Shown: one piece after another, positions 6,373 to 30,660 of the stretch | Layout of the letters: the number at the start of each line of letters is the position of its first letter | How positions within the stretch are numbered: position 1 is the first letter of the stretch | NCBI GenBank assembly: GCA_964389315.1 | Contig: CAYMDJ010000002.1 | Coordinates: 1-59,633 of the forward strand | Source of the DNA: an uncultured archaeon | GTDB taxonomy: Archaea > Aenigmatarchaeota > Aenigmatarchaeia > QMZP01 | Direction: 5' to 3' | DNA length: 59,633 nt | Notes under the pieces: generated by a model | The model's input: only the letters and a program-made list of their open reading frames with translations | What the model was told of the DNA's origin: nothing | The model's database searches: none | Position numbers and translations under genes: made by a program

Positions 6373-8697
6373 ATGCCTGGAAAGCTTTCTGGAAGGGTCA
6401 ACTTAAAGGAACTTGTAATGAAATACTGGTGGCTTGTAGCTTTAGTGCTCATAGTTTCCAGCGCGTTCTGGATAAGGTCGTTCCCCGCGAGGTTCGGGGA
6501 GCTGCAGGCACTTGACCCTTTCTTCTTCTACAGGACAGGCGAGCATGCCCTGCAGAACGGCCTGAGCGTGAATTATCATGACGACCTGAGATACTATCCC
6601 GATGGTGTGAACACATACCAGATAGAATACATGCTTCCCATATACCTTCCCATATTCGGTTATCTGTTGGTATCTTTCCTCGGTTCCCAGATGACGTTCC
6701 TGCAGTTCAGCATAATCTTCCCTGCAATAATGGGAGCTCTATCGATTGTCGTGGTGTATTTCCTCGGTAGGGAGCTCTTCCAGAGCAGGCTCGCAGGAAT
6801 CTCCTCGGCATTCTTCATGGCAGTGATACCAGCGGCAGTGACGAGAACCTCCGCAGGGTTCATCGAGAAGGAGCCCGTTGCCGCGATATTCATACCGCTC
6901 ACAGCATACTTCTTCGTGAGGGCATTCCGGAGGAAGTCACTGATTGACGGGGTCATGTCAGGTATCTCTCTCGCAATGCTCGGGATGTCATGGGGCGGCG
7001 TCCAGTATATATATGTCCTCTATGTCGGGTTCTTCGGTATCCTGTTCCTCACAGGAGGGATTCTCGTGCTCCTCAACTACCTGTTCGGGGGACTTGACAA
7101 GTGGATAAGCTCGATAGAGTCGTGCTATGACGAGAGGATTGTCTTCTCGTTCCTTCCGCTGATGCTCATAGGGATTCCTCTGCACTGGGTTTTCCCGCAC
7201 AGCATAACCACCAATGCGGTGGCTGTCCAGCTCTCGTTTGCCGTTGCAGGCGTTCTCGCAGGCAGGTATGGACTTGAGAGGTTCAAGCTGGTGAAATCAG
7301 AGCTCCTTCCCTATGTGATACCTGCGATAATGGTCATGGGTGTCGTTGGCCTGCTCACGGGCTCCATGTTCATAGACAGCCTCTCAAGAGGGGTTTCCGA
7401 ATTCACTGGCCTTATGACGTTCCAGAAGGGTGTCATAGGGACGACCGTAGCTGAGAACGCTCCCGGGGACTGGAATGCCATACAGTCAACGACAGGCAAC
7501 AGCTATTCGTCCGCTTACCTGCCTTATCTTTCTCCGGTGGCGTGGTTCTTCTCAGCAAGCCTGCTCATGATTCTCGGCATAGGCGCGATAATATACAGGG
7601 TGTGGAGAAGGAAGGACTGGATTCTCATCCTTCCTGCAATATGGTTCTTCACCAGCATATTCGCGGTCTTCTATTACGTCAGGCTGGTCTTCCTGATAGC
7701 GGTCCCTGCATCCCTCCTTTCCGGATTCTTTGCATACTGGGTAGTGGACAGGTCAAAAAGGACCGGGGCATATAAGCGAATGGCTGACGCAGGAAAGAGG
7801 TTCAATCCCATAGCAATAGTCCTGGCTGCGCTGGCAATCCTCCTGGTAATGACGAATTTTGCAAGCGCGTATGCATACGGCATAAACCTGGGTCCTTCGA
7901 TATGCTTCCCCAGGTATAATTCCAACAATCCGTTCGATGTCGAGCCCTGCATCACGTATGATGGGAACGGCAACGAGGTCTTTGCAGACAACCAGCCATG
8001 GTATGAGGCATTCGCGTTCTTCAGGGACCAGACCCCCGAGGACAGCGTCATCCTTTCATGGTGGGACTTCGGCCACTGGTTCCACGCGAGGGCCGAAAGA
8101 GCGTCGGTCGCTGACGGCGGTAACATCTTCGGCTCAACCATAAACGTCCCTATAGCCCAGTGGTACGTGGACGACGTCTCGAACTGGGGCGGGCACGAGG
8201 AATGGATAAAGAGCAGGGGGGTTACTCACATACTGATGGATTATACCCTTCCCGGAAAGTACGGGGCAATATCAAAGATTGCATCTAATGGCGAGCAGAT
8301 AATAGGATACCTCCAGATGAGCCAGTCGGGCGCTCAGCAGAGGGACAATGACACGATATATATATTCAGCAACGGACCCTATGAGCTGTGGCTTCCGATG
8401 GGACCGGATGGGGGGCTTTCAGGGACGCCCATGTTCCTCATCTCGCAGAACGGGCAGTATTACCAGAGGAGTTACGTGAACGACGTATGCACCAACCAGG
8501 GTATACTGACCGTCGGAAACCAGACACCATCAATGCCGGGTTGTGTGGGGCTAGCGGACTTCGGTGTGTTTTACGTCCCCCCGGAGGCAGAGAACTCTAT
8601 ATTCAACAGCCTTATGTTCCTTGACGGCAAGGGACTTCCCGTTAAGAAGGTCTTTGACAACAGATACATAAAGATTTACGAAGTGGAATACAGATAG
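6373..8697 (+). CDS. aglB: archaeal oligosaccharyltransferase AglB (STT3 family)
   Basis: The N-terminal half is multi-TM. The catalytic WWDYG-type motif reads WWDFGHW (DNA ~8056-8079), followed by a soluble C-terminal domain. The ORF track starts at GTG 6358; ATG 6373 or ATG 6418 (MKYWWLVAL...) are more likely, so the start is uncertain. Confidence 0.9.
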   Translation: MPGKLSGRVNLKELVMKYWWLVALVLIVSSAFWIRSFPARFGELQALDPFFFYRTGEHALQNGLSVNYHDDLRYYPDGVNTYQIEYMLPIYLPIFGYLLVSFLGSQMTFLQFSIIFPAIMGALSIVVVYFLGRELFQSRLAGISSAFFMAVIPAAVTRTSAGFIEKEPVAAIFIPLTAYFFVRAFRRKSLIDGVMSGISLAMLGMSWGGVQYIYVLYVGFFGILFLTGGILVLLNYLFGGLDKWISSIESCYDERIVFSFLPLMLIGIPLHWVFPHSITTNAVAVQLSFAVAGVLAGRYGLERFKLVKSELLPYVIPAIMVMGVVGLLTGSMFIDSLSRGVSEFTGLMTFQKGVIGTTVAENAPGDWNAIQSTTGNSYSSAYLPYLSPVAWFFSASLLMILGIGAIIYRVWRRKDWILILPAIWFFTSIFAVFYYVRLVFLIAVPASLLSGFFAYWVVDRSKRTGAYKRMADAGKRFNPIAIVLAALAILLVMTNFASAYAYGINLGPSICFPRYNSNNPFDVEPCITYDGNGNEVFADNQPWYEAFAFFRDQTPEDSVILSWWDFGHWFHARAERASVADGGNIFGSTINVPIAQWYVDDVSNWGGHEEWIKSRGVTHILMDYTLPGKYGAISKIASNGEQIIGYLQMSQSGAQQRDNDTIYIFSNGPYELWLPMGPDGGLSGTPMFLISQNGQYYQRSYVNDVCTNQGILTVGNQTPSMPGCVGLADFGVFYVPPEAENSIFNSLMFLDGKGLPVKKVFDNRYIKIYEVEYR

Positions 8698-28057: not shown

Positions 28058-28714
28058 ATGATAAAGAAAGAGAAGATAACGGACTACAGGAACTTCTGGC
28101 TCATCTGGCTCAGTTGCGCAGGAAAACCAGACAAGGGAGAGTCTCTATTCAAGATACAGGACGCGTGGAACATAAAGACCAACTATCTCTACCACCATGA
28201 GACCGGTCTCGGAAAGCCATTATACATGCATATGATAAGGAAAAACTACATCCGCAAGCAAAAGACGAAACTCGTCCCGAACTTTGCCTGGATAAACGAG
28301 CACATAAAGGAAATCGTTGGTGAGGGGGTGGGCAATACGTGGTATCCGAGCGTCTTCATCGGCGGGCGGTGGCCGGTTGTCCAGAGTTTCATAGAGAAGA
28401 ACGCGAACGTTCTTTTCAGCATGGAGAACCTAAAAATCCTCTACAAGGAAGATAGGAACATACTTGGCGAGTCCGGACGTCACATCTTTACAGACATTTT
28501 CCTTTACGTAATCTTTTCAAACATGATAGAGTTCTGTAAAAAATACCACGCTGACATTGTATTAAGGATCCTTTCTACCTTCATATCAGTGTTCGCGGAC
28601 AGGGACCTGCTCAATTACATAAGGAAGGTTCACAGCCAGATCGGTGATAACGTACCAGTATTGATATCCAACGAATCAGAGATGAACAGGCTGATGTATC
28701 CATTCAAATGGTAA
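28058..28714 (+). CDS. hypothetical protein (218 aa), orphan, AT-richer than its neighbours
   Basis: ORF 27974-28714. ATG 28058 (MIKKEKITDYRNFW...) is preferred because TTTTATATTA lies ~25 nt upstream. The protein is soluble and W/Y/K/N-rich. No motif recognised. Confidence 0.5.
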   Translation: MIKKEKITDYRNFWLIWLSCAGKPDKGESLFKIQDAWNIKTNYLYHHETGLGKPLYMHMIRKNYIRKQKTKLVPNFAWINEHIKEIVGEGVGNTWYPSVFIGGRWPVVQSFIEKNANVLFSMENLKILYKEDRNILGESGRHIFTDIFLYVIFSNMIEFCKKYHADIVLRILSTFISVFADRDLLNYIRKVHSQIGDNVPVLISNESEMNRLMYPFKW

Positions 28715-28765
28715 CCCGCTTACGGACGCCGGCGGCTTGGTTAAATCAGTGCAGTCGCAAGCGGG
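28715..28765 (+). repeat. hairpin-repeat copy 0 (GCTTRC ... GYAAGC family)
   Basis: CCCGCTTAC-(33 nt)-GCAAGCGGG starts immediately after the stop codon at 28712-28714. 8 of 9 stem positions pair. Confidence 0.5.
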
Positions 28766-29008
28766 TGAGCAACAATCAAATTATTCTAAAAAGCTCAACC
28801 AAGAAACGAACCCTTTTACTGCTCATTGCTTCGCCAGGCAACTGCGGCGAATGATGGTTGGTGACAAAAGCGTTCACGGAAAAAACAGGTGTAAATTCTA
28901 CGTGTTTGGCTTAAGCCTTTGTGGAAGCGAGTGTCTGCTTCCCGCATTGGTTATGTATTGAAAGAGCGGGCACTTTAGATCCGGTAAAGGCTTATTTGCG
29001 TGTTGCTC

Positions 29009-29059
29009 CTCGGCTTGCGACTAAAACAACATGGCAAGCGGTAGCGTCTGTAAGCTGAG
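29009..29059 (+). repeat. hairpin-repeat copy 1
   Basis: CTCGGCTTGCGAC-...-GTAGCGTCTGTAAGCTGAG forms a 10-bp stem with two G:U-type pairs. An internal GCAAGC (29034-29039) offers an alternative partner for GCTTGC. Confidence 0.55.
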
Positions 29060-29096
29060 AAGTAGCCTATTTATCCTCAAAGGTCTTCTGGTTGCT

Positions 29097-29149
29097 TATC
29101 AGCTTGCGACTGGACCAATGGGGCAGGCGGCAGCGTCTGTAAGCTGATA
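29097..29149 (+). repeat. hairpin-repeat copy 2
   Basis: TATCAGCTTGCGAC-...-GCAGCGTCTGTAAGCTGATA forms an 11-bp stem. The outer base pairs differ from copies 1 and 3 but stay complementary. It ends at the TATA-like box of the minD-like gene. Confidence 0.55.
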
Positions 29150-29195
29150 TTTATAAAGCTAAAGCCTGAATATAGAGTATCTGGGCCTGAAGGTG
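29147..29195 (+). promoter_or_regulatory. TATA-like box (ATATTTATAAAG, 29147-29158) and SD (AGGTG, 29191-29195) of the minD-like gene
   Basis: An AT-rich box lies ~43 nt upstream and a purine-rich GGTG motif lies 5 nt upstream of ATG 29201. Confidence 0.45.
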
Positions 29196-29200
29196 TGGAA

Positions 29201-29974
29201 ATGACCAGGATAATAGGCATAGTTTCAGGGAAGGGTGGGGTTGGAAAGACTACCGTGGCTATCAATCTGGCAACTTCCCTTGCGAAGAAATACAAGAAGG
29301 ACGTCATAATAGTTGACGGCAACGTGACGACCTCCCACCTCGGCCTTTACCTGGGGATGTACTATTATCCCATATCACTCAACCACGTCCTCTCCGGAGA
29401 CGTAGTGATAGACAAGGCCATGTATGACTACAGCATTCCCGGGGTGAGGATAATACCCGCCTCCTTATCGCTGGATGACCTCAAGGGAATGGACGTTTCT
29501 GACATGAAGAAGCATGTCAAGGAGCTGTTCGGCAAGGCTGATTTTGTCATACTCGATGGCGCGCCGGGATTCGGAAGGGAGGCAATGGCAACCATCCGCG
29601 CCTCCGATGAGATACTCTTCGTTATGACGCCCTTCGTCCCTCCCCTGATGGACGTCATAAAGTGCTACCAGGTCGCGGAGGAGCTCGGTGTCAGGTCCCT
29701 GGGCGTCGTCCTGAACATGACCGGGGAAGGGAGGCACGAGCTCGGAAAGCAGGAGGTAGAGCAATTGATAGAGCTTCCCGTGATATCAATGATACCGAGG
29801 GACAAGGAGGTCCTCAGGAGCCTCTCTGCAAAGCTTCCTGTCACGGACCTCAACCCCAATACCAAATCGAGCAGGGAGATTGACAGGCTTGCAGCATACA
29901 TAGCAGGTGAATACTACACCCCGCCGGGAATAGCTTCAAGGCTCTCCGGTTTGTTCAGAAGGTCAAAGGCCTGA
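29201..29974 (+). CDS. minD: MinD/ParA-family P-loop ATPase (archaeal MinD-like)
   Basis: Deviant Walker A SGKGGVGKTT, Walker B FVILDGAPG, and a C-terminal basic amphipathic tail (IASRLSGLFRRSKA) like a MinD membrane-targeting helix. AGGTG at 29191-29195 lies 5 nt before ATG 29201. GTG 29195 is the alternative start. Confidence 0.9.
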   Translation: MTRIIGIVSGKGGVGKTTVAINLATSLAKKYKKDVIIVDGNVTTSHLGLYLGMYYYPISLNHVLSGDVVIDKAMYDYSIPGVRIIPASLSLDDLKGMDVSDMKKHVKELFGKADFVILDGAPGFGREAMATIRASDEILFVMTPFVPPLMDVIKCYQVAEELGVRSLGVVLNMTGEGRHELGKQEVEQLIELPVISMIPRDKEVLRSLSAKLPVTDLNPNTKSSREIDRLAAYIAGEYYTPPGIASRLSGLFRRSKA

Positions 29975-30015
29975 TATCATTAGCAGAATGGATTTCAATA
30001 GTTTTCTGGTTGCTC

Positions 30016-30053
30016 CTCGGCTTGCATAAGGCGGAAGCCTATCGTAAGCCGAG
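30016..30053 (+). repeat. hairpin-repeat copy 3 (short form with GGAA-capped inner stem)
   Basis: CTCGGCTTGC-ATA-AGGC-GGAA-GCCT-ATC-GTAAGCCGAG. It shares the 5' flank TTCTGGTTGCT with copy 2. Confidence 0.55.
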
Positions 30054-30123
30054 AATAGTTTCTTATATCACGAAAACCATATTAATTAATAGTCGCTGTA
30101 ATGGAAATGTAGTGCTGGTTGGC

Positions 30124-30660
30124 ATGACGGGGAATATAGACTCCACTATAAAGAAGAATTCGATTTCCGTAATCGTGATGCCGAACACTGCCTATAACGA
30201 GACGCTGAAGGATATAGTTAGCGCTGCGCTGGATAAGCACGGTTCGCTTTGTTACATATCGCTGAACAAGCCCTATAACAGCGTGATGACATATCTGAAG
30301 AACAATGGTGTTGATTCTGGGAACATAATATTCATAGACGCCGTGACAAAGGAGACGGGATCCGATTCAGAGCAGGTGATATACGTTTCCTCGCCGACAG
30401 CGCTAACAGAGATTAACATAACCATGAACAAGATTCTCGAGGCAGGGGGGATAAAGGTCGTTCTCATAGATTCCATATCAACGCTGCTGCTCTACACCGA
30501 GGAATCGGTCGTCCTGAAGTTCGTGCATTCGATCGTCTCAAAGATGAGGAGTGACAAGAATGACTGCATAATGGCTGCAATCGAGGACGAATCAACCAGG
30601 GAACTTATAGATGACATGTCAATGTTCGTTGACGAGATTCTGGAACTCGGGAAGAAGTGA
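30124..30660 (+). CDS. KaiC/RecA-fold-like protein lacking a Walker A P-loop (paralog of 39733-40341)
   Basis: ORF 30010-30660. Its 5' part overlaps hairpin copy 3, so ATG 30124 (or GTG 30112), downstream of ATATTAATTAATA, is preferred. It has the beta-strand/helix pattern and the hhhhDSIS motif (VVLIDSISTLL) of KaiC-like proteins but no GxxGxGK[ST]. It aligns by eye with the 202-aa protein along its whole length. Confidence 0.6.
   Translation: MTGNIDSTIKKNSISVIVMPNTAYNETLKDIVSAALDKHGSLCYISLNKPYNSVMTYLKNNGVDSGNIIFIDAVTKETGSDSEQVIYVSSPTALTEINITMNKILEAGGIKVVLIDSISTLLLYTEESVVLKFVHSIVSKMRSDKNDCIMAAIEDESTRELIDDMSMFVDEILELGKK

What the first reader, a model, noticed from the sequence alone, without database searches (positions are those of the whole stretch)
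28715..30053. A family of four covarying hairpins (GCTTRC...GYAAGC core) bracketing the minD-like gene inside an unusually long non-coding region
Elsewhere in this genome spacers are 0-70 bp. Here 28715-29200 (486 bp) has no convincing ORF and contains three copies of one element, with a fourth in the 149-bp spacer after minD.
- Copy 0: CCCGCTTAC...GCAAGCGGG, 28715-28765.
- Copy 1: CTCGGCTTGCGAC...GCGTCTGTAAGCTGAG, 29009-29059.
- Copy 2: TATCAGCTTGCGAC...GCGTCTGTAAGCTGATA, 29097-29149.
- Copy 3: CTCGGCTTGC-AGGC-GGAA-GCCT-GTAAGCCGAG, 30016-30053.

The core is conserved. The outer stem pairs change in a compensatory way: CGG/CCG in copy 3, CAG/CTG in copy 2, CGG/CTG with G:U in copy 1, and CCCG/CGGG in copy 0. 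A G:T pair in the core is present in every copy from 1 to 3. G:U-type pairs only work on the plus-strand transcript, the same sense as minD, kaiC-like and the kinase. This argues for an RNA-level element rather than a protein-binding DNA palindrome. Copy 1 also contains an alternative partner (GCAAGC, 29034-29039) for the 5' arm, which allows mutually exclusive folds. Copies 2 and 3 share the 5' flank TTCTGGTTGCT. Candidate roles are a processing or stability element, a protein-binding RNA motif, a small RNA family or an attenuator. A centromere-like site for the ParA/MinD ATPase is the DNA-level alternative.
Basis: partly seen in the sequence, partly recalled or inferred. Interest (0 to 1): 0.62.

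Follow-up and report, generated by a model that had tools for sequence, protein, structure and literature searches.

The report
Dispersed modular hairpin repeats, not minD-specific
The four hairpins around the minD-like gene are real, but they are ordinary copies of a repeat family with about 40 members per genome in this tiny DPANN archaeon; the copies are gained, lost and swapped between close relatives and share building blocks with the organism's tRNA and rRNA introns, so they are not a minD-specific regulatory RNA.

Summary
**Observation.** It is confirmed with corrections. All four hairpins exist at the stated places. Copy 0 is inverted and belongs to the minus strand.

**What they are.** They belong to a family with a defined layout:
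- a T-rich leader, then GTTGC and 2 nt;
- a covarying 4-bp outer stem;
- a GCTTGC/GTAAGC core with a G·T pair;
- a 3-bp helix flanked by two single-base bulges;
- a variable apical part of 10 to about 75 nt.

A covariance model finds 39-45 copies in this ~1-Mb Aenigmatarchaeota MAG and 37 in its congener. Other genera of the order have 0-18. Copies lie on both strands and only outside confirmed genes. Structure is strongly conserved: 98% of cells are paired and 15 of 16 pairs show double changes.

**Turnover.** Between the two congeners the flanks stay nearly identical. The hairpins themselves are absent, replaced by another family member, or tandemly duplicated.

**Placement.** The hairpin end sits flush against stop codons, promoter boxes or tRNA 5' ends.

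**Link to introns.** The inner hairpin and its companion modules also occur in tRNA introns, a 5S rRNA insert, 23S flanks and this genome's own 23S insert.

**Best reading.** This is a proliferating, recombining structured repeat (REP/MITE/BOX-like, related to intron bodies), not a minD regulator or centromere. The way it spreads is unknown, and no RNA data exist.

The parts
28714..28773 (-). Copy 0 unit, medium type. It consists of the GTTGCTC tag (28767-28773) plus a hairpin ACCC-GCTTGC-GAC-[insert]-GC-GTC-C-GTAAGC-GGGT (28714-28766). Its hairpin end overlaps, by one base, the TAA stop codon (28712-28714) of the upstream plus-strand ORF.
   Evidence: R1 hit, 33.3 bits, minus strand. Folds. 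Absent from the congener G001.
28809..28873 (+). Module X-Y, a hairpin of the inverted type: AACCCTTTTAC...(inner stem-loop)...GACAAAAGCG. It is followed by the tail AAAAGCGTTCACGGAAAAAAC (28866-28886). The same two modules open the T-loop introns of this genome's tRNAs and its 81-nt 23S insert.
   Evidence: The fold has a weak z-score, so the module is recognised by its recurrence, not by its folding energy.
28915..28991 (+). Divergent forward-type hairpin GCCTTTG...TAAAGGC with a long inner stem.
   Evidence: -29.2 kcal/mol, z = -3.2; the minus strand gives only -18.5. The same CCGTAAAGGC-TTATTTGCGT-GTTGC junction recurs at C50. A related GTGTTTGGCTTAAGCC start lies ahead of a tRNA on C4.
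28992..29059 (+). Copy 1 unit, medium type. It consists of the leader TTATTTGCGT, the tag GTTGCTC, and the hairpin CTCG-GCTTGC-GAC-[insert]-GC-GTC-T-GTAAGC-TGAG (29009-29059).
   Evidence: (31 bits). Absent from G001.
29076..29148 (+). Copy 2 unit, medium type. It consists of the leader CTCAAAGGTCTTCTG, the tag GTTGCTT, and the hairpin ATCA-GCTTGC-GAC-[insert]-GC-GTC-T-GTAAGC-TGAT (29098-29148).
   Evidence: (33.4 bits). G001 has only a degenerate remnant here.
29149..29178 (+). Candidate promoter region of minD. It holds two TATA-like boxes: ATTTATAAAG directly after copy 2, and AATATAGA at -31 to -24 from the ATG. Both lie downstream of copy 2.
   Evidence: Read from the sequence. Genome-wide, TTTAWA peaks at -30 to -26 from ORF starts. 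This stretch is identical in G001. The promoter assignment is an inference.
29201..29974 (+). The minD-like ATPase gene. It is context only, not part of the element.
   Evidence: Orthologues are 94% identical in G001 and 57-69% identical in eight other genera.
29993..30053 (+). Copy 3 unit, short type. It consists of the leader TTTCAATAGTTTTCTG, the tag GTTGCTC, and the hairpin CTCG-GCTTGC-ATA-A-GGC-GGAA-GCC-TAT-C-GTAAGC-CGAG (30016-30053).
   Evidence: 71.1 bits; z = -5.4. At the same site, with identical flanks, G001 carries a 112-nt composite of another subtype.
30054..30063 (+). AATAGTTTCT, an imperfect direct repeat of the leader's AATAGTTTTCT. It flanks copy 3 on its 3' side and is conserved in G001.
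   Evidence: Such a flanking repeat is not seen at most other copies, so it is not good evidence for a target-site duplication.

Best explanation
The four hairpins are members of a dispersed, modular family of hairpin-forming repeats. The family has expanded in one genus of Aenigmatarchaeota (DPANN) and occurs sporadically across the order.

**The unit.** A unit is polar. It starts with a T-rich leader of about 17 nt, then GTTGC and 2 nt. The hairpin that follows has:
- a base of 10 bp, made of a variable 4-bp outer stem and the GCTTGC/GTAAGC core with a G·T pair;
- a 1-nt bulge (C or T) on the 3' strand;
- a 3-bp helix (AGA/TCT, ATA/TAT or GAC/GTC);
- on the 5' strand, either a bulged A or an insert of 15 to about 55 nt;
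- a short apical stem with a 4-nt loop.

**How it behaves.** Units behave as selfish or neutral DNA. They occupy only non-coding DNA, in either orientation, alone or as mosaics and tandem arrays. They turn over quickly by insertion, loss, tandem duplication and exchange between copies, probably by gene conversion across the shared arms or by repeated insertion at the same sites.

**Inferences.**
- The strict conservation of the fold, the two bulges and the mismatch suggests that the folded single strand (DNA or RNA) is what the copying or recombination machinery recognises, as in REP, IS200/IS605 ends or attC sites. This is not shown.
- At minD the copies are most likely passengers. At most they have generic effects, such as a stable hairpin on read-through transcripts or spacing between transcription units.
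- The modules are shared with the bodies of tRNA and rRNA introns of the same lineage. Introns and spacers of stable-RNA genes therefore appear to be one of the family's habitats, and possibly its source.

**Shown here:** family membership, anatomy, covariation, distribution, turnover and sharing of modules with introns.

**Inferred only:** mobility, its mechanism, and the lack of a dedicated function.
For: **Family size and spread.**
- R1 finds 39-45 hits in G000 and 37 in G001. Across 91 genomes of the order, other genera have 0-18 hits, and numbers are patchy even within genera: 5, 18 and 7 in one; 6 and 0 in another.
- The upstream neighbour is on the same strand in 16 of 28 copies, the downstream neighbour in 13 of 27.

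**Structure.**
- 97.8% of 734 cells are paired. 15 of 16 pairs show changes on both sides. No shuffle out of 500 reaches the observed values, and slid controls give 26-47% paired.

**Turnover between congeners.**
- MinD is 94% identical between G000 and G001, yet copies 0 and 1 are missing in G001 and copy 3 is replaced.
- Interiors are swapped between conserved arms at C65 (upstream of a tRNA) and at C3.
- At C12, three of the four outer-stem pairs differ on both sides (ATCA/TGAT against CTCG/CGAG) while the interior is nearly the same.
- C47 has two different units where G001 has three identical 77-nt tandem units.
- G000 has empty sites at C20 and C18.
- At five sites G001 has only a unit where G000 has one or two ORFs.
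- In G001:C8, two units are each flanked by the 13-nt direct repeat CCGGCCAGGCCCA, which is the 3' end of a tRNA.

**Polarity of placement.**
- The hairpin end lies -1 or 0 nt from the stop codon of a convergent gene in 9 of 14 such cases, plus C5:6226.
- It lies 0-3 nt from tRNA position +1 in two cases.
- It lies 1-9 nt upstream of BRE/TATA-like boxes at several genes.
- The leader side is never flush.

**Modules shared with introns.**
- The inner hairpin lies in tRNA intron bodies in G012 and G013, in a 5S rRNA insert in G039, and about 30 nt from the 23S ends in G018 and G025.
- G000's own 81-nt 23S insert and its tRNA T-loop introns carry the X, Y and interior modules found in intergenic copies.

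**Other.** Rfam gives no match.
Against: - No mobilising enzyme was identified. No Y1 transposase or RAYT is present in five genomes that hold copies. Reverse-transcriptase genes occur in G000, but none was found in G001 or three other copy-bearing genomes.
- Target-site duplications are not consistent. One 13-nt case was seen, but none at the two clean empty sites.
- The very strong structural conservation, the constant bulges and the precise abutment to stop codons and tRNA 5' ends could equally mean a host function, for example 3'-end protection, a processing signal or a protein-binding site.
- G000 and G001 are about 88% identical at the DNA level, so "empty" sites cannot be separated from precise deletions.
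- Both genomes are incomplete MAGs (87% and 80%).
- The covariation counts come from an alignment fitted to the model, and subfamilies inflate the cell counts.
- There are no transcription data.
Confidence: 0.6

Rival explanations
1. RNA-mediated spread of intron-derived modules. In this reading the hairpin units are bodies of archaeal bulge-helix-bulge (BHB) introns or pre-rRNA/pre-tRNA spacers that proliferate through an RNA intermediate. The route could be reverse splicing or ligation into transcripts followed by reverse transcription and recombination, or SINE-like target-primed copying of a hairpin-plus-A-rich-tail RNA. Intergenic copies would then be off-target landings.
For: - The inner hairpin lies inside tRNA introns, a 5S rRNA insert and 23S flanks. 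In all six cases outside the genus it has the same orientation relative to the RNA gene.
- A BHB can be drawn by hand around G000's 81-nt 23S insert (h GGGCG/CGCCC, H GCAG/CUGU, h' AACC/GGUU) and around the G012 tRNA intron, with the hairpin as the intron body.
- Read on the other strand, the unit is a hairpin followed by GCAAC and an A-rich tail.
- One insertion has a 13-nt direct repeat on each side.
- G000 encodes two reverse transcriptases.
- tRNA intron modules recur at 15 or more other places in G000.
Against: - The hairpin itself is not a BHB: its bulges are 1 nt and its helix 3 bp.
- Within the genus, the tRNA-adjacent copies (C65, C4, G001:C8) have the opposite orientation to that seen in other genera, so the orientation rule is not general.
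- No reverse transcriptase was found in G001 or in G018, G023 and G012, all of which hold copies. G002 has one but holds no copies.
- Only 6 of 27 copies examined outside the genus lie in or beside recognised RNA genes.
- Splicing is not demonstrated, and the BHBs were drawn by hand.
Confidence: 0.2
2. A host-functional cis-acting RNA element. Read in the sense of the upstream gene, the hairpin would protect or define mRNA 3' ends directly behind stop codons, or act as a processing or insulating signal between transcription units. The repeats would then be maintained by selection for that role, as REP elements stabilise upstream mRNA in E. coli.
For: - Hairpin ends abut stop codons exactly in about 10 cases and abut tRNA position +1 in two.
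- The fold, the bulges and the G·U pair are strongly conserved across genera.
- Forward-strand folds are 3-5 kcal/mol more stable than their complements, and the apical loops resemble GNRA tetraloops.
- All copies lie outside confirmed coding sequence.
Against: - There is no orientation bias relative to neighbouring genes.
- The copies that abut stop codons present the weaker A·C version to that gene's mRNA.
- No U-run follows the hairpin in either sense, so it is not a terminator. Copies 2 and 3 lie upstream of the promoter boxes of the next gene.
- Close relatives and orthologous loci do without the copies.
- Content is swapped freely at conserved sites.
Confidence: 0.15
3. A centromere-like or operator DNA site for the ParA/MinD ATPase, or an attenuator or riboswitch specific to the minD - kaiC-like - kinase operon.
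For: Three or four copies cluster around minD in an unusually long spacer.
Against: - About 36 further copies lie elsewhere in the genome, next to unrelated genes and tRNAs.
- Eight orthologous minD loci in other genera have none.
- The congener lacks two of the four.
- The distance between the two arms varies from 18 to about 75 nt, which does not suit a dimeric DNA-binding site.
- The alternative pairing in copy 1 is not conserved.
Confidence: 0.02

Closest known systems
REP / BIME / REPIN elements of Proteobacteria, mobilised by RAYT (a Y1 transposase); see the GTAG- and CGTC-tagged palindromes in PMC3733652
   Same: Both are short, imperfect extragenic palindromes with a conserved tag on one side. 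Both occur in tens to hundreds of copies, on both strands, often directly behind stop codons. Both form mosaics and inverted pairs, carry conserved mismatches or bulges in the stem, and have a patchy distribution among relatives.
   Different: The tag here is GTTGC, 2 nt ahead of the stem, not GTAG or CGTC. No RAYT or Y1 transposase gene was found. The apical part is highly variable in length and modular. The host is archaeal (DPANN). Modules are shared with introns.
Modular bacterial repeats and MITEs: pneumococcal BOX (boxA-B-C) and RUP, Neisseria Correia elements (own knowledge; reviews PMC3184786 and PMC10969869)
   Same: Both are non-autonomous and non-coding, are built from combinable modules, and fold into stable hairpins. 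Both sit in intergenic DNA next to promoters and gene ends, and both are gained and lost between strains.
   Different: No terminal inverted repeats of an identifiable IS were found. There is no regular target-site duplication. The unit is a single polar hairpin with a one-sided leader.
Transposed tRNA introns of Thermoproteales (Fujishima et al. 2010) and short hairpin BHB introns of archaeal rRNA genes
   Same: Related hairpin sequences recur in introns of different tRNA and rRNA genes of one lineage. This suggests that intron bodies move or are copied. A BHB can be drawn around the inserts that carry the modules.
   Different: Most copies here are intergenic, not in RNA genes. The hairpin itself lacks a BHB. 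Splicing has not been shown.
Integron attC sites
   Same: Both conserve structure more than sequence. Both have extrahelical bases on opposite strands and a terminal structure of variable length. Both lie directly after stop codons. At some sites gene content differs between relatives.
   Different: There are no complementary R''/R' boxes: GTTGCTC has no partner 3' of the hairpin. There are no cassette arrays and no integron integrase context. The copies are dispersed and lie in both orientations.

Membership tests
REP/REPIN-RAYT | Short, imperfect extragenic palindromes in many copies on both strands | tested here: met
   39-45 copies in G000, all outside confirmed genes, on both strands.
REP/REPIN-RAYT | A conserved GTAG or CGTC tetranucleotide at the foot of the palindrome | tested here: not met
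   The conserved flank is GTTGC plus 2 nt, on the 5' side only.
REP/REPIN-RAYT | A cognate RAYT (Y1 transposase, PF01797) gene in the genome | tested here: not met
   No hit in G000, G001, G018, G023 or G012, while the control genomes gave hits. All five are incomplete MAGs, so absence is not proven.
MITE | Terminal inverted repeats matching a resident IS, with a target-site duplication of fixed length | tested here: inconclusive
   The stem arms could serve as terminal inverted repeats. One 13-nt direct repeat was seen. None was seen at the two empty-site comparisons. A parent IS was not searched for systematically.
Archaeal BHB intron | An hBHBh' motif (3-nt bulge, 4-bp helix, 3-nt bulge) at the element's boundaries | tested here: not met
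   The hairpin has 1-nt bulges separated by 3 bp. A BHB can be drawn only around the larger 23S and tRNA inserts that contain related modules.
Archaeal BHB intron | Location inside an RNA gene and removal from the mature RNA | not testable with these tools
   The four window copies are intergenic. Related copies lie inside tRNA, 5S and 23S genes. No RNA data exist.
Integron attC | Complementary R'' (RYYYAAC) and R' (GTTRRRY) boxes at the base of the stem, in cassette arrays beside intI | tested here: not met
   GTTGCTC has no complementary partner 3' of the hairpin, and the copies are dispersed and not arrayed. No attC model was run.
Intrinsic or archaeal terminator | A run of T (U) at or just after the element, in the sense of the terminated gene | tested here: not met
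   The T-rich leader precedes the hairpin. No T-run follows it on either strand. The generic scan found nothing at the copies.
parS-like centromere or operator of a ParA/MinD system | Sites confined to the par/min locus and conserved with it | tested here: not met
   The copies are genome-wide. They are absent from eight orthologous minD loci and partly absent in the congener.
Known RNA families (Rfam 15) | A match at or near the gathering score | tested here: not met
   No hit at gathering threshold in the window. Only chance-level hits (E > 5) in 28600-30200.
K-turn / L7Ae-binding hairpin | A 3-nt bulge followed by tandem sheared G·A pairs | tested here: not met
   Read from the sequences: no tandem GA/AG flanks the bulges in any subtype.

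The most novel reading that the evidence does not exclude
The family may be a non-autonomous element that moves through RNA. In this reading a small structured RNA (hairpin, GCAAC and an A-rich tail) lives as the body of BHB introns and of spacers in tRNA, 5S and 23S genes. It is copied into new sites behind stop codons, ahead of promoters and at tRNA ends. That would offer a direct, testable route by which protein-less archaeal introns are gained and spread. It would also be a first SINE-like or intron-derived retro-element in Archaea.
Probability: 0.15. Interest if true: 0.85.

Novelty: new variant of a known kind. Interest (0 to 1): 0.48.

Why it matters
**For annotation.** The long minD spacer is a pile-up of repeat modules. 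The hairpins should not be annotated as a minD regulator, a small RNA or a centromere.

**For biology.** Three points stand out.
- A roughly 1-Mb, streamlined DPANN genome tolerates about 40 copies of a structured repeat.
- Orthologous copies are re-sampled between congeners: whole outer stems or interiors are exchanged while the flanks stay fixed.
- The same modules build the bodies of tRNA and rRNA introns.

Together these features make the lineage a natural system for asking how small hairpin repeats, and perhaps archaeal introns, proliferate without an obvious transposase. The exact placement of the hairpin end at stop codons, promoter edges and tRNA 5' ends is unexplained. It could point to a target rule or to a generic host use.

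Tried and rejected
- **Rfam.** The window at gathering threshold and the region at E <= 10 gave nothing.
- **tRNA scan of the window.** None found.
- **RNA-seq runs.** None are available. Only salt-marsh DNA metagenomes hold the stretch. Laying their contigs recovered the G001-like alleles but showed no polymorphism within the G000 strain.
- **CRISPR-like array.** G001:C4 has 77-nt periodic copies, but the "spacers" are identical, so this is a tandem duplication.
- **Y1 transposase / RAYT.** Absent.
- **Reverse transcriptase as mobiliser.** It is present in G000 but does not correlate with copy number across genomes.
- **Strand asymmetry of wobble pairs in the variable stems.** Too weak to use: 7 G·U against 3 A·C.
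- **Uniform orientation relative to stable-RNA genes.** It holds in six of six cases outside the genus, but tRNA-adjacent copies inside the genus are reversed.
- **Inverted duplication of the target.** I considered whether the outer stem is copied from the flank, because G001 shares CCCGCT at the copy-0 site. The other empty sites do not support this.
- **The AAAGCTTTAAA box after several hairpins as part of the element.** Only 3 of about 40 copies have it, so this stays undecided.
- **Viral contigs.** No exact match to the inner hairpin.
- **Bacterial-type promoter and terminator scan.** Uninformative for an archaeon.
- **Literature.** Two full-text searches found no description of this family.
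Full report
**1. The observation**

The pattern GCTTGC-N8-38-GTAAGC occurs five times in the window against 0.14 expected, and no shuffle out of 100 reaches five. The fifth match, at 7513-7560, lies inside a gene and is unrelated.

Each copy folds as described.

| Copy | Energy (kcal/mol) | z-score |
|---|---|---|
| 3 | -22.9 | -5.4 |
| 1 | -16.1 | -2.1 |
| 2 | -18.7 | -1.6 |

One correction is essential. Copy 0 is an inverted copy. The repeat finder pairs 28749-28781 with the 5' halves of copies 1-3 as inverted repeats. On the minus strand copy 0 reads GTTGCTC-ACCC-GCTTGC-GAC...GTC-C-GTAAGC-GGGT. On the plus strand its core carries an A·C mismatch.

Rfam has nothing at gathering threshold, and only chance-level hits at E <= 10. 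The window holds no tRNA.

**2. Anatomy of the family**

The window is contig C2 of a ~1-Mb MAG in 108 contigs, 87% complete. Earlier notes of this scan assign it to Aenigmatarchaeota. A related genome with the same element is titled Candidatus Aenigmatarchaeota.

Regular-expression scans of the whole genome showed a polar unit:
- a T-rich leader, either TTTCAATAGTTTTCTN or TAATTTTTGCGT;
- GTTGC and 2 nt;
- a 4-bp outer stem that varies but stays paired (ATCA/TGAT, CTCG/CGAG, CTCA/TGAG, CCCC/GGGG, CACA/TGTG, TGCA/TGCA and others);
- the core GCTTGC/GTAAGC with a G·T pair;
- a single bulged C or T on the 3' strand;
- a 3-bp helix (AGA/TCT, ATA/TAT or GAC/GTC);
- on the 5' strand, either a single bulged A (short type, 36-38 nt; copy 3) or an insert of 15-20 nt (medium type; copies 0-2) or about 55 nt (long type);
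- a 2-3-bp apical stem with a 4-nt loop (GGAA, GGGA, GGCA, CGCA, GGTA).

On 14 short-type copies, 98% of cells pair, five pairs show changes on both sides, and no shuffle out of 500 reaches the observed values. On 59 matches from 20 or more genomes, 97.8% of cells pair. There 15 of 16 pairs show changes on both sides, and slid controls give 26-47% paired. That alignment is fitted to the model.

The fold is therefore real and selected.
- In the variable outer stems G·U occurs 7 times and A·C 3 times among 236 pairs.
- The core G·U is replaced by U-A in 8 of 55 members.
- The alternative partner in copy 1 is not conserved in other copies.

**3. Distribution**

A covariance model of the short type (R1) gives these counts:

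| Genomes | Hits |
|---|---|
| G000 (this genome) | 39-45 |
| G001 (same genus) | 37 |
| Other genera, 91 genomes of the order | 0-18 |

Numbers are patchy even within genera: 5, 18 and 7 in one; 6 and 0 in another; 0-4 in a third. Many distant genomes hold only one or two matches to the inner hairpin, UUGC-AGA-A-GGC-GGAA-GCC-UCU-C-GUAA.

In G000 the copies lie outside real genes and on both strands. There is no bias towards the strand of either neighbour: the upstream neighbour is on the same strand in 16 of 28 copies, and the downstream neighbour in 13 of 27.

Orthologous minD loci of eight other genera (57-69% protein identity) have no copy. This excludes a minD-specific element and a Par/Min centromere.

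**4. The long spacer is a mosaic**

Reading 28715-29200 against the family gives, in order:
- copy 0, inverted, with its hairpin end overlapping the upstream TAA by one base;
- an inverted-type hairpin AACCCTTTTAC...CAAAAGCG (28809-28873) with the tail AAAAGCGTTCACGGAAAAAAC;
- a divergent forward hairpin GCCTTTG...TAAAGGC (28915-28991; -29.2 kcal/mol, z = -3.2);
- copy 1;
- copy 2;
- directly after copy 2, two TATA-like boxes ahead of minD.

TTTAWA boxes peak at -30 to -26 from ORF starts in this genome, so most mRNAs have little or no leader. Copies 2 and 3 therefore lie upstream of the likely promoters of minD and of the kaiC-like gene, not in their 5' UTRs. This placement is an inference.

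**5. Turnover between congeners**

G001 has a MinD that is 94% identical, and its coding DNA is about 88-93% identical to G000.

At the minD locus:
- Downstream of minD the flanks are letter-for-letter the same up to GGTTGCTC and again from GTAAGCCGAG onward. Between them G001 has a 112-nt composite of another subtype instead of the 38-nt copy 3.
- Upstream, the G001 spacer is about 150 nt. It lacks copies 0 and 1 and keeps only a degenerate trace of copy 2.
- The metagenome contigs contain both alleles.

I imported 26 further G001 loci and mapped their flanks onto G000. The outcomes fall into five groups:
1. **Same element kept:** C15, C11, C17.
2. **Same site, different family member:**
   - At C65, upstream of a tRNA, and at C3, the short interior AGAAGGCGGGAGCCTCTC is replaced by a medium interior GACTG...GCGTCC between conserved arms.
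   - At C12 the interior is the same, but three of the four outer-stem pairs differ on both sides.
   - At C47 two different units in G000 correspond to three identical 77-nt tandem units in G001.
3. **Empty site in G000:** C20 has 8 nt against an 84-nt unit, and C18 has 4 nt against a 176-nt composite. Neither shows a clear target duplication.
4. **Gene content differs:** at five sites G001 has only a unit where G000 has one or two ORFs.
5. **Flanking repeat:** in G001:C8 two units follow a tRNA. Each is flanked by the 13-nt direct repeat CCGGCCAGGCCCA, which is the 3' end of that tRNA.

Three double compensatory changes in a 4-bp stem between such close genomes cannot plausibly arise by point mutation. 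They indicate either exchange between copies or repeated insertion at the same spot.

**6. Polarity of placement**

The hairpin end of the unit is flush with a functional boundary:
- It lies -1 or 0 nt from the stop codon of a convergent gene in 9 of 14 such cases, plus C5:6226.
- It lies 0 and 3 nt from position +1 of two tRNAs.
- It lies 1-9 nt upstream of BRE/TATA-like boxes at several genes.

The leader end is never flush. I have no explanation for this asymmetry. It could reflect a target rule, or a generic host use such as a 3' hairpin.

**7. Link to introns**

Outside the genus, 6 of 27 examined matches lie in or beside stable-RNA genes:
- tRNA intron bodies in G012 and G013;
- an insert of about 60 nt in a 5S rRNA gene in G039;
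- 33 nt before a 23S gene in G018 and 28 nt after one in G025;
- 72 nt after a tRNA in G026.

In all six cases the hairpin is antisense to what I call the forward orientation.

Within G000:
- The 3' part of the 23S gene (C19) carries inserts of 128 and 81 nt.
- The 81-nt insert is built of AACC, an inverted-type hairpin CUUUUUAC...GCAAAAAG, the tail GCGUUUGCGGAAAAAC and a forward-like UUGC-AAC...GUU-CU-GUAA. A bulge-helix-bulge can be drawn around it by hand.
- ARAGORN finds only nine tRNAs. The tRNAs I read by eye carry T-loop introns that start CTGAACCC and hold the same modules.
- These modules recur at 15 or more other places, including inside two family members, C36:8106 and C24:12726.
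- tRNA-adjacent copies inside the genus are in the forward sense. The orientation rule is therefore not general.

**8. Candidate machinery**

- No Y1 transposase or RAYT was found in five genomes that hold copies.
- G000 has two reverse-transcriptase genes, on C36 and C41. None was found in G001, G018, G023 or G012. G002 has one but holds no copies.
- The inner hairpin has no exact match in viral contigs.
- No paper describing this family was found.

**9. Verdict**

The hairpins are real and structurally constrained. They are four members of a proliferating, recombining, modular repeat family, not a device of the minD operon. The family works most like REP/BIME, BOX or MITE elements and is related to the intron bodies of this lineage.

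Mobility is inferred from distribution and turnover, and its mechanism is unknown. An RNA-mediated, intron-linked route is possible (about 0.15-0.2). A generic host RNA role is also not excluded (about 0.15).

Earlier AI notes of this scan describe similar hairpin repeats and mini-introns in other Aenigmatarchaeota genomes. I used them as leads only and tested the relevant points here on this family.

Noticed in passing
G000 contig C36:2063-2950 (+) and C41:2390-3037 (-); outside the window: Two reverse-transcriptase genes (RVT_1, E = 1e-24; motif YLDDFVIF). On C36, a partial inverted hairpin lies 300 nt downstream of the gene. That hairpin and a full hairpin (C36:5169) bound a two-gene segment that is absent from the congener.
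   Followed up: partly
G000 contig C19:1-686, and the ORF from about 700: The 3' part of the 23S rRNA gene carries two inserts (128 nt and 81 nt) at model positions of about 2571 and 2628. Directly after the 23S end an A-rich ORF begins (MEIKIDSILKQ...GFWIGDNWSNREG). It looks like a LAGLIDADG-type homing endonuclease.
   Followed up: partly
G000 whole genome; for example C65:1-230 (-), C4:28157-28380 (-), C35:1890-2070 (-): ARAGORN finds only nine tRNAs. tRNA genes read by eye carry two introns each: one in the anticodon loop and one in the T loop that starts CTGAACCC. Standard tRNA finders therefore miss most of them.
   Followed up: partly
G000 contig C47:1075-1746 (-): An ORF of 223 codons reads through two hairpin units (1115-1236) before it reaches a stop. 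The orthologous G001 region has a different number of units. Either the C-terminus is encoded by repeat DNA or the ORF call is too long.
   Followed up: no
G039 locus L025:161-340: A 5S rRNA gene of another family of the order holds an insert of about 60 nt that contains the inner hairpin. It is either a mini-intron or an expansion segment.
   Followed up: partly
window 28866-28886, and 15 or more sites genome-wide: The motif AAAAGCGT(T/G)(C/T)(A/G)CGGAAAAA recurs on both strands in intergenic DNA, in tRNA T-loop introns and in the 23S insert. In some copies it forms a small hairpin, CGTTCGC-GGAAAA-GCGAATG.
   Followed up: partly
G000 C66:916-1866 against G001:C20, and C14 against G001:C8: Some contigs of the two MAGs are 99-100% identical over about 1 kb, although the genomes otherwise differ by about 10%. 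This could mean shared or mis-binned contigs, or recent exchange.
   Followed up: no
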